A DNA stretch of 15,712 nt from a virus. Lineage: Duplodnaviria; Heunggongvirae; Uroviricota; Caudoviricetes. The notes under the pieces are model-generated. The model was not told the origin of the DNA, did not search any database, and saw only the letters and a program-made list of their open reading frames with translations. A program made the position numbers and the translations under genes. Below, in pieces: positions 6,619-6,644 of this stretch (its first letter is position 1; each line of letters opens with the position of its first letter). Location: IMG/VR virus record IMGVR_UViG_2700989173_000009; one strand, given 5' to 3'.

Positions 6619-6644
6619 TTGTTCGTGGTTGTTCCACGTTGTTC
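6619..6644 (+). repeat. Three TTGTTC hexamers at exact 10-bp phasing (6619, 6629, 6639) with an embedded CGTGG/CCACG inverted repeat; overlaps a possible -35 of the head-operon promoter
   Basis: Sequence tatTTGTTCgtggTTGTTCcacgTTGTTCac. A TATTTT -10-like hexamer lies 16 bp downstream (6661-6666). Same motif family as 1271-1325 (opposite orientation) and 14119-14134. Confidence 0.55.

What the first reader, a model, noticed from the sequence alone, without database searches (positions are those of the whole stretch)
6619..6644. Family of TTGTT(C/G) repeats phased 10 bp apart at three sites in the window
Three clusters share a hexamer on an exact helical repeat: 1271-1325 (minus orientation, at least 4 units, between int and alpA), 6619-6644 (3 units, about 215 bp upstream of the capsid ATG, overlapping a plausible -35), and 14119-14134 (2 units, near the phoQ 3' end). 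This phasing is typical of cooperative binding by one protein. Candidates are integrase arm-type sites (N-terminal domain of P4/lambda-type Int), AlpA sites, or a helper-phage late activator. The copy near phoQ may mark the att-proximal end of the element. I cannot tell which from sequence alone.
Basis: seen in the sequence. Interest (0 to 1): 0.7.

Follow-up and report, generated by a model that had tools for sequence, protein, structure and literature searches.

The report
Phased TTGTTC operator arrays of a satellite
The 10-bp-phased TTGTTC repeats are real and conserved, and they are most likely the docking sites where the island's small AlpA protein lines up to trigger excision and switch on its own gene and the island's capsid genes; this is a known kind of switch whose sites had not been mapped for this family.

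Summary
The window is a capsid-forming PICI (EcCIEDL933/EcCICFT073 family) inserted between roxA and phoQ. Chains of at least 3 TTGT units in exact 10-bp phase occur only at the three reported sites: 1273-1322 (minus strand, 5 units), 6619-6648 (3 units, plus TTGTAA at 6608) and 14109-14138 (3 units). Shuffles give none, and about 80 kb of flanking chromosome has none. A fourth array lies just left of the window, upstream of int in the attL arm.

Both att arms carry the same module: a TTGT array abutting a doubled 12-mer, GGTGTAGTTAAT x2. The 12-mers sit at P4-like distances from the core (GGACATATTT, 14244-14253) and change with the integrase type, so they are the better candidates for Int arm-type sites. 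The TTGT arrays persist across integrase types and across three unrelated replication proteins. The real ori iterons (TGTCTACC) lie at 5523-5760.

Best reading (about 0.6): the arrays are cooperative sites for AlpA, an excisionase-fold winged-helix protein. AlpA would act as recombination directionality factor at the arms and as activator at its own promoter and the capsid operon promoter. Binding is inferred, not shown. This is a new member of a known kind (186 Apl, P2 Cox, P4 Vis).

The parts
1273..1322 (-). Array 1: five TTGT-core units at exactly 10-bp spacing in the int-alpA intergenic region, in inverted orientation relative to the other arrays
   Evidence: Across 13 distinct intergenic variants the AACAA cores are 92-100% conserved and the spacers 46-85%. 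An array is present at -300 to -355 from alpA in 66 of 68 viral-contig loci with AlpA at least 90% identical.
6608..6648 (+). Array 2: TTGTAAATTAT followed by TTGTTCGTGG TTGTTCCACG TTGTTCACTG, directly after the terminator of the early operon and upstream of the capsid operon
   Evidence: The 40-bp block is nearly invariant in two leader types that are otherwise about 50% diverged, and it is also present in helper-embedded PICIs.
6578..6599 (+). Intrinsic terminator-like hairpin plus T-run that ends the replication/PerC operon just before array 2
   Evidence: It is conserved, or replaced by another hairpin plus T-run, in all variants.
6664..6691 (+). Candidate weak sigma-70 promoter of the capsid operon (-35 TTTACC, 16-bp spacer, -10 TATTCT)
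   Evidence: Inference from conservation of TTTACM-N16-TATNYT in both leader types. It was not found by the consensus scan. No transcription start data are available.
14109..14138 (+). Array 3: three phased TTGT units in the attR (P) arm, abutting the doubled 12-mer
   Evidence: It is conserved in EcCICFT073 and in the O157 and PCN033 elements.
14152..14175 (+). Doubled 12-mer GGTGTAGTTAAT GGTGTAGTCAAT, the probable Int arm-type sites, centred 85 bp from the core. The partner copy is centred 142 bp from the core in the attL arm.
   Evidence: The geometry matches P4's annotated attP arm repeats and the HE-PICI doubled motif. The sequence changes with integrase type.
14244..14253 (+). attR core GGACATATTT, overlapping the phoQ stop codon
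   Evidence: Homology to empty sites begins at 14244-14247. attL, attR and attB were compared; coordinates are.
1605..1793 (+). alpA, encoding a 62-aa protein, the proposed binder of the arrays
   Evidence: Pfam Phage_AlpA, 5e-18. PHROG 'excisionase and transcriptional regulator'. The AlphaFold model (pLDDT 87) best matches the GIsul2 excisionase 8C3T (TM 0.79/0.86) and also matches RdfS and TorI.
1..1230 (+). int, a P4-type tyrosine integrase with an N-terminal arm-DNA-binding domain
   Evidence: Pfam Arm-DNA-bind_3 and Phage_integrase.

Best explanation
The TTGT(T)(C) decamer arrays are cooperative operator arrays for the island's AlpA protein. AlpA is a 62-aa MerR-like winged-helix protein of the excisionase (RDF) type.

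Proposed mechanism (inferred, not shown):
- One AlpA monomer binds per unit, head to tail, one helical turn apart, and bends the DNA.
- At the two att arms, a four-unit array directly abuts the doubled Int arm-type 12-mers. The AlpA filament would help the Int N-terminal domains load and would shape attL and attR for excision.
- In the int-alpA spacer, the five-unit array would mediate the AlpA auto-activation already measured for EcCICFT073.
- Upstream of the capsid operon, the array sits at about -57 to -88 from a weak promoter. AlpA would switch on the satellite's own capsid and packaging genes there.

One small protein would thus couple excision, its own amplification and late gene expression.

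Shown here: the arrays, their phasing, their conservation and their positions. Also shown: which proteins they do and do not co-vary with.

Inferred: that AlpA is the binder, the promoter positions, and the direction of regulation.
For: 1. The phasing and clustering are far beyond chance and are confined to four regulatory places in the element.
2. The phylogenetic footprint is periodic, with cores 92-100% and spacers 46-85% conserved. Array 2 is a 40-bp island of identity inside diverged leaders.
3. The arrays are constant while the replication protein is swapped (D5_N primase, RepA helicase, DUF927). They are also constant while the integrase N-domain drops to 47-78% identity and the 12-mers change.
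4. All elements with arrays encode an AlpA with the helix-2 motif [SC]R[ST]xR[YW]. AlpA clade A elements favour TTGTTCC. Clade B elements favour TTGTTCG, including L131, which keeps the window-type 12-mer.
5. Helper-embedded PICIs carry two AlpA paralogues. They keep array 2 but have lost the phased arrays in the P' arm upstream of int, the only arm readable here (the P arm of L006 is cut by an IS3). This fits a division of labour between the paralogues.
6. AlpA has an excisionase fold.
7. Literature: EcCICFT073 AlpA activates PalpA, and its overexpression alone triggers int-dependent excision and replication (PMC6092414). alpA is required for cf-PICI induction. In PICMI, AlpA is necessary and sufficient for excision. 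RDFs bind direct repeats one helical turn apart, and some double as transcription regulators (PMC7498355; PMC11963761).
Against: - No binding data exist. No paper in the searchable library reports an AlpA site for these islands.
- Array 1 lies about 200-250 bp upstream of the best candidate PalpA (TTGCCA-N17-CACAAT, 1515-1543) and is in inverted orientation, which is unusual for a simple activator.
- RDF sites are classically on one arm only; here they are on both.
- AlpA and Int diverge together in most comparisons. The co-variation argument therefore rests on a few lineages (L131, L133, L087, HE-PICIs) that are not independent samples.
- The clade A versus clade B difference at position 7 comes from 19 and 27 units, and clade A units were selected on TTGT.
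- Fillol-Salom et al. saw no AlpA effect on Pint, although an array overlaps the int upstream region.
- EcCICFT073 lacks array 2, so AlpA control of late genes is not general.
Confidence: 0.6

Rival explanations
1. The arrays are arm-type sites for the N-terminal domain of the P4-type integrase, which would also bind at the two internal sites.
For: Int carries an Arm-DNA-bind_3 domain. The arrays lie in both att arms at fixed distances. Lambda's P'1-P'3 arm sites are also phased direct repeats (general knowledge). P4 Int represses its own promoter (cited in PMC7286903).
Against: Each arm already has a doubled 12-mer at the same distances as P4's annotated arm repeats (75/134 bp) and the HE-PICI motif (81/132 bp). 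These 12-mers change with integrase type: GGTGTAGTTAAT, TGTGTGGTCAGT, TGTGTATTGCAC. The TTGT arrays do not change. Two of the four arrays are 1.3 kb and 6.8 kb from the attL core. Array 2 survives in helper-embedded PICIs whose Int is only 42% identical.
Confidence: 0.08
2. The arrays, or at least array 1, are targets of a trans-acting helper-phage protein that induces the island. An example would be a helper Xis/Cox-like RDF, as P2 Cox is said to act on P4.
For: Helper phages switch on the alpA promoter by an unknown route, and in EcCIMP1 they still do so without alpA (PMC11773190; PMC6092414). The P4 record shows three 10-bp tandem repeats (CCACTTAAAG) upstream of vis, the alpA homologue. 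From memory, unverified here, these coincide with P2 Cox boxes that activate P4 PLL.
Against: The arrays abut the Int sites in both arms and precede the satellite's own capsid operon, which suggests an element-encoded factor. AlpA overexpression alone, without any phage, gives excision and replication. Known helpers (lambda, phi80) are diverse. No similar DNA block was found in 50,697 phage records.
Confidence: 0.12
3. The arrays are iterons for the island's P4-alpha-like primase-helicase, with ori-like and crr-like sites scattered in the element.
For: P4 type I iterons (TGTTCACC) are direct repeats 10-11 bp apart and resemble TTGTTCAC. The window primase is 40% identical to P4 alpha over residues 326-762. 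P4's crr lies beside its attP arm.
Against: A separate dense iteron field (TGTCTACC/GGTAGACA, at least 12 copies in two inverted sets) lies at 5523-5760, directly 3' of the primase gene. That is where the PICI ori was mapped experimentally (PMC6092414). The arrays are unchanged in elements whose replication protein is a RepA-type helicase or a DUF927 protein with unrelated C-terminal parts. L131 has both P4-type iterons at its ori and TTGTTCG arrays at its arms.
Confidence: 0.02
4. The arrays are bound by another protein. Candidates are a host direct-repeat-binding response regulator (PhoP-like or TorR-like boxes) or another conserved island protein such as the 93-aa ORF at 13174-13455.
For: The island sits beside phoPQ. 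OmpR-family regulators bind phased direct repeats (general knowledge). Several conserved small island proteins have no known function.
Against: The same arrays occur in relatives inserted at tqsA, cspD/clpS, rcnR and inside a prophage terminase gene, so the phoPQ neighbourhood is incidental. The period is 10 bp, not the 11 bp of PhoP boxes. None of the other conserved proteins shows a DNA-binding domain.
Confidence: 0.08

Closest known systems
Phage 186 Apl and P2 Cox (dual-purpose RDF and transcription regulator)
   Same: Both are small winged-helix proteins encoded near int. Their operators are direct repeats one helical turn apart, found both at att and at promoters, with weak per-site specificity and strong cooperativity (PMC7498355). 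The arrays here have the same anatomy: 3-5 units, a 4-6-bp conserved core and free spacers, at att arms and at two promoter regions.
   Different: Apl and Cox repress early promoters, whereas AlpA is reported as an activator. The sequence families differ (AlpA is PF05930). The arrays here lie on both att arms and upstream of a structural-gene operon.
Satellite phage P4: Vis (ORF88) and the P4 attP
   Same: Vis is the AlpA homologue (45% identity) and is annotated as excisionase and transcriptional regulator. P4 attP has doubled 12-bp arm repeats on both arms at 75 and 134 bp from the core, matching 85 and 142 bp here. P4 Int and Vis both regulate Pint.
   Different: P4 has no TTGT array. Its arm repeat sequence differs (TTGGGGGCATAT). 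The Vis helix-2 differs (SRSTIYE against SRSCRYR). The Vis binding sites could not be read here because the paper is not held.
Doubled TGTATTGC motif of helper-embedded PICIs (PMC10111431)
   Same: It is a tandem 12-bp motif in both attP arms at fixed distances (81 and 132 bp). The authors left open whether Int arm domains or AlpA bind it.
   Different: That motif corresponds to the 12-mers here, not to the TTGT arrays. The paper reported it as unique to HE-PICIs. Here, sequence-variant counterparts appear in PICIs at roxA/phoQ, tqsA, clpS and rcnR.
Lambda Xis at X1-X1.5-X2 next to Int site P2
   Same: Phased RDF sites directly abut an Int arm-type site, which allows RDF-Int cooperativity and a sharp bend.
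   Different: Lambda has them on the P arm only, and Xis has no known promoter-activating role.
Pseudomonas aeruginosa AlpA (Q-like antiterminator)
   Same: Only the name is shared, plus the presence of terminator-like hairpins downstream of a regulated promoter.
   Different: It is a much larger protein (contact residues up to H142) with a 21Q-like fold. It has a single GGGACG element between -35 and -10, bound by one molecule. The terminator-like hairpin before the capsid ATG is absent from the type B leader that keeps the array.

Membership tests
RDF (excisionase) operator arrays of tyrosine-recombinase elements | Three or more direct repeats spaced about one helical turn apart | tested here: met
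   There are 3-5 units at exactly 10 bp in four places, against 0 expected by chance.
RDF (excisionase) operator arrays of tyrosine-recombinase elements | Located in an att arm, between or beside the Int arm-type sites and the core | tested here: met
   The arrays abut the doubled 12-mers in both arms. The P' array lies between the core and the 12-mers (+88 to +127). The P array lies distal to them (-140 to -111).
RDF (excisionase) operator arrays of tyrosine-recombinase elements | A cognate small winged-helix RDF is encoded next to int | tested here: met
   AlpA matches PF05930. Its best fold match is the GIsul2 excisionase 8C3T, followed by RdfS and TorI.
RDF (excisionase) operator arrays of tyrosine-recombinase elements | Cooperative binding and DNA bending by the RDF at these repeats, and a requirement for excision | not testable with these tools
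   This needs EMSA, footprinting and excision assays. Only indirect literature support exists for AlpA-driven excision.
Dual-function RDF/transcription regulators (Apl, Cox, Vis type) | Additional operator arrays at promoters outside att | tested here: met
   Array 1 lies in the int-alpA spacer and array 2 upstream of the capsid operon. The regulatory effect itself was not tested.
Integrase arm-type sites | The sequence co-varies with the integrase arm-binding domain | tested here: not met
   The TTGT arrays persist over Int N-domain identities of 47-100%, whereas the 12-mers change.
Integrase arm-type sites | Confined to the att region | tested here: not met
   Arrays 1 and 2 are about 1.3 kb and 6.8 kb from the attL core.
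Replication iterons (P4 alpha / PICI Pri-Rep) | Clustered at the ori next to the initiator gene, and changing with initiator type | tested here: not met
   A separate TGTCTACC iteron field lies at 5523-5760. The arrays are invariant across D5_N, RepA and DUF927 initiators.
Q-like antitermination (P. aeruginosa AlpA) | A single binding element between -35 and -10, and a Q-like protein with an RNA-exit-channel ring | tested here: not met
   The protein here is 62 aa with a MerR-like winged helix. The arrays are upstream multi-unit repeats, and the downstream terminator is not conserved.
Capsid-forming PICI (context of the window) | int, alpA and pri together with HK97-type capsid, protease, portal, connectors, HNH, TerS and TerL, and no tail or lysis genes | tested here: met
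   Pfam hits. The organisation is the same as in the O157 (EDL933-type) element L004 and as described in the cf-PICI preprint.

The most novel reading that the evidence does not exclude
The arrays are the missing cis-element through which Gram-negative PICIs are switched on. One possibility is that a helper-phage Xis/Cox-like protein docks on them, as proposed for P2 Cox on P4, and so triggers alpA. Another is that a single AlpA filament type simultaneously licenses excision at both att arms and turns on a satellite-encoded capsid operon. Either would give a one-protein, one-motif master switch whose motif could be used to predict AlpA regulons and helper compatibility across thousands of islands.
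Probability: 0.12. Interest if true: 0.75.

Novelty: new member of a known kind. Interest (0 to 1): 0.45.

Why it matters
AlpA is the master switch of Gram-negative phage-inducible chromosomal islands, but its DNA targets have not been defined in any paper I could search. A precise four-site map turns two open questions into simple mutational and binding experiments. The map comprises both att arms, the alpA upstream region and the capsid operon promoter, with a clear core (TTGTTC) and a 10-bp register. The first question is how AlpA couples excision to gene expression. The second is how capsid-forming PICIs time their own capsid genes. The analysis also separates the probable Int arm sites (doubled 12-mers, P4-like geometry) from the probable RDF sites. 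This resolves an ambiguity left open for helper-embedded PICIs. It also provides a motif for annotating att ends and AlpA regulons in enterobacterial satellites.

Tried and rejected
- **Genome-collection scan with AlpA.** It returned only 3 loci and was of no use for diversity.
- **Viral-contig scan for three phased TTGTTC units.** Most hits were unrelated chance matches. Only the PICI-related loci, identified by tblastn, were used.
- **AlpA-alignment scan of viral contigs.** It returned mainly close relatives. This was good for frequency counts but gave little new divergence.
- **P. aeruginosa AlpA antitermination model.** Rejected: it is a different, larger Q-like protein, and the terminator-like hairpin before the capsid ATG is missing from the type B leader.
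- **Iteron hypothesis.** Rejected.
- **Last TTGTTC as the -35.** No conserved matching -10 exists in the second leader type, and the promoter scan found nothing at its threshold.
- **Phage mimicry of a helper late promoter.** No similar DNA was found in the phage collection.
- **P4 Vis footprint paper (Cali 2004).** Not held, so the Vis sites could not be compared. A phased TCCG triplet next to P4's int-side 12-mers was seen by eye only and is not used as evidence.
- **PDB entry 8C3T.** No paper was found for it.
- **An error of mine.** An early tblastn query for the capsid was translated one base out of frame (noticed). It affects no conclusion.

Full report
**What the window is.** Pfam hits give the following gene order:
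- a P4-type integrase with an arm-DNA-binding domain (1-1230);
- AlpA (1605-1793);
- DUF4222 (3471-3770) and a D5_N/Pox_D5 primase-helicase (3767-5515);
- a PerC fragment (6394-6555);
- an HK97-type capsid gene, prohead protease, portal, head-completion and connector proteins, HNH, TerS and TerL (6859-13160).

This is the organisation of a capsid-forming PICI, the EcCIEDL933 family. Empty-site genomes match only from 14244-14247 onward. Comparison of attL, attR and K-12 attB gives the core GGACATATTT at 14244-14253, overlapping the phoQ stop codon. The island therefore lies between roxA and phoQ, the same site as EcCICFT073 (L003) and the O157 element (L004). Up to position 6600 the window differs by one base from a Shigella flexneri chromosome (L007). 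This locus supplies the attL side that the window lacks.

- TTGTTSN4TTGTT occurs 6 times against 0.04 expected. The hexamer alone is not enriched.
- Chains of at least three TTGT units at exactly 10 bp occur three times in the window, at the three reported places and nowhere else. Shuffles give none, and the chromosomal flanks of the related loci have none.
- Array 1 (1273-1322, minus strand) has five units.
- Array 2 (6619-6648) has three units, plus TTGTAA 11 bp upstream.
- Array 3 (14109-14138) has three units.
- A fourth array of four units lies 88-49 bp upstream of the int ATG, in the attL arm.

**Conservation supports function.**
- Among 68 viral-contig loci with AlpA at least 90% identical, 66 have the inverted array 300-355 bp upstream of alpA. 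All but one of those that extend upstream of int have the four-unit arm array, and only one stray chain was seen elsewhere.
- In 13 distinct int-alpA spacers the AACAA cores are 92-100% conserved and the intervening bases 46-85%. This gives a 10-bp-periodic footprint.
- Array 2 is a 40-bp block with one substitution between two leader types that are otherwise about half diverged. About 400 E. coli genomes share similarity starting just upstream of it.

**Anatomy of the att arms.** Both arms carry the same co-oriented module: a TTGT array, 3-4 bp, then a doubled 12-mer (GGTGTAGTTAAT GGTGTAGTyAAT). The 12-mers are centred 85 bp (P arm, 14152-14175) and 142 bp (P' arm) from the core.
- The P4 record annotates doubled 12-bp 'attP arm sequence repeats' 75 and 134 bp from its core.
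- Helper-embedded PICIs have a doubled TGTATTGC motif at 81 and 132 bp (seen in L006).

The 12-mers are therefore the positional counterparts of P4-type Int arm sites. Their sequence follows the integrase lineage. Window, L003, L005 and L131 (N-domain identity 73-100%) share GGTGTAGTTAAT. L133 (61%) and L087, whose Int N-domain is not in the locus (int 69% identical over residues 142-403), have TGTGTGGTCAGT. L006 (51%) has TGTGTATTGCAC.

**Which protein reads the TTGT arrays?**

*Replication initiator: excluded.* The ori iterons are a separate dense field of TGTCTACC/GGTAGACA at 5523-5760, directly 3' of pri. That is where the PICI ori was mapped. The arrays are unchanged in relatives whose initiator is a RepA-type helicase or a DUF927 protein.

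*Integrase: unlikely.*
- The arms already have Int-type sites that co-vary with Int.
- Two arrays are far from att.
- Array 2 survives in helper-embedded PICIs with 42%-identical Int.

*AlpA: fits best.*
- Every array-bearing element encodes an AlpA with helix-2 [SC]R[ST]xR[YW] and a conserved wing.
- Clade A elements favour TTGTTCC and clade B elements TTGTTCG. L131 belongs to clade B although it keeps the window-type 12-mer.
- Clade B AlpAs that are 78-91% identical to each other pair with two different 12-mers.
- Helper-embedded PICIs have two paralogues. One overlaps int and has a different helix. The other is 60% identical to the window AlpA over the 50 aligned residues (BLAST), and its helix-2 (SRSRRW) still fits the motif. 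These elements keep array 2 but have lost the phased array in the P' arm upstream of int, the only arm readable here.
- The AlpA model (pLDDT 87) best matches the GIsul2 excisionase. It also matches RdfS and TorI.
- alpA is required for cf-PICI induction, and a PICMI AlpA is sufficient for excision.
- RDFs characteristically bind direct repeats one turn apart with weak specificity and high cooperativity, and several are also transcription regulators.

**Proposed mechanism, with shown and inferred steps marked.**

*Shown:* array positions, phasing, conservation, and independence from Rep and Int variation.

*Inferred:*
- AlpA monomers bind head to tail on the units.
- At the arms, the filament abuts the Int arm sites and promotes excisive synapsis, as lambda Xis does beside P2.
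- Array 1 mediates autoactivation.
- Array 2 activates a weak promoter (TTTACC 6664-6669, N16, TATTCT 6686-6691). This is the only hexamer pair conserved in both leader types, and it places the array at about -57 to -88. Array 2 follows directly on the terminator of the early operon (6578-6599), so it marks the start of a separate late transcription unit.

**Weak points.**
- There are no binding data.
- Array 1 is inverted and lies 200-250 bp from the best candidate PalpA (1515-1543).
- RDF sites on both arms are unusual.
- No AlpA effect on Pint was seen experimentally.
- EcCICFT073 lacks array 2.
- The co-variation rests on few, non-independent lineages.

**Rival that cannot be dismissed.** A helper-phage factor could act on the arrays, particularly array 1. 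Helpers switch on the alpA promoter by an unknown route, even without alpA in EcCIMP1. P4 has three 10-bp tandem repeats upstream of vis; from memory, unverified here, these are P2 Cox boxes. Against this, the arrays abut Int sites, AlpA alone suffices for excision, and no similar DNA exists in 50,697 phage records. A host response regulator is unlikely because the arrays travel with the island to four other insertion sites.

**Verdict.** The repeats are real, functional-looking and conserved. They are best read as AlpA operator arrays of the RDF/regulator type (confidence about 0.6), next to separate Int arm sites. This is a new member of a known kind (186 Apl, P2 Cox, P4 Vis). It is useful because it defines testable targets for the master regulator of Gram-negative PICIs and links that regulator to the capsid operon of capsid-forming PICIs.

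Noticed in passing
window 14152-14175; L007 8351-8374 (attL side): A doubled 12-mer, GGTGTAGTTAAT x2, lies in both att arms at P4-like distances from the core (85 and 142 bp). PMC10111431 reported such a doubled motif as unique to helper-embedded PICIs. Sequence-variant counterparts occur here in PICIs at roxA/phoQ, tqsA and clpS (same 12-mer) and at rcnR (TGTGTGGTCAGT).
   Followed up: yes
window 5523-5760: This is the replication origin. At least 12 copies of TGTCTACC/GGTAGACA lie in two inverted sets directly 3' of the primase gene. The sequence is related to, but distinct from, the P4 type I iteron TGTTCACC. L131 and L133 carry the P4-type iteron at the same place.
   Followed up: partly
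window 7684-7686: The major capsid gene (6859-8016) carries an in-frame nonsense codon, TGG to TGA (W276*). It is shared with the S. flexneri locus L007 and is absent from L001, L004 and L005. This copy of the island probably cannot make its own capsid.
   Followed up: yes
window 6394-6555: The PerC-family gene is truncated to 53 aa. Relatives encode 82-92 aa, and L001's copy is frameshifted. The small ORF that precedes array 2 in L001 and L004 is missing here.
   Followed up: partly
window 6698-6875: The capsid leader RNA is strongly structured (MFE -64.6 kcal/mol, z = -4.2). It includes an 11-bp stem (6722-6770) and a hairpin GTCCTGG...CCAGGAC followed by T7 that ends at the capsid ATG and contains the only AGGA. 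This could act as an attenuator or as a ribosome-binding-site trap. It is absent from the second (type B) leader.
   Followed up: partly
window 1248-1263: A perfect 16-bp palindrome, CAGTATGCGCATACTG, lies just after the int stop codon and next to array 1. It is preceded, not followed, by T-runs. It is deleted in the EcCICFT073-type spacer.
   Followed up: no
window 1353-1445 and 1515-1543: Conserved blocks lie between array 1 and alpA: TTTTTTATACACTAGCGAATCAC, a hairpin AAAGGCAT...ATGCCTTT (1417-1445), and a candidate PalpA TTGCCA-N17-CACAAT. The candidate promoter is preserved through a 10-bp indel in the O157-type spacer.
   Followed up: partly
L007 8235-8284 (attL, 15-65 bp from the core); L131 7172-7191; L133 6775-6804: A second, degenerate run of 10-bp-phased GTTT/GTTC units lies next to the core in the P' arm. 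It could extend the proposed filament toward the crossover region.
   Followed up: no
window 13174-13455: A 93-aa ORF (PHROG 1561, unknown function, no Pfam hit) is annotated at the right end of every PICI examined here, capsid-forming or not. The conserved palindrome-rich stretch 13880-14100 follows it and may include the packaging site.
   Followed up: no
L006 18633-19880: In the helper-embedded PICI of strain TUM1881, an IS3-family element has inserted into the P-arm doubled motif, splitting the two TGTATTGC copies. This probably immobilises that island.
   Followed up: no
L130 (P4) 3966-4000: Next to P4's int-side doubled arm repeats there are three TCCG motifs spaced 11 and 10 bp apart. 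They occupy the position that the TTGT array holds here and may be Vis sites. This was seen by eye only.
   Followed up: no
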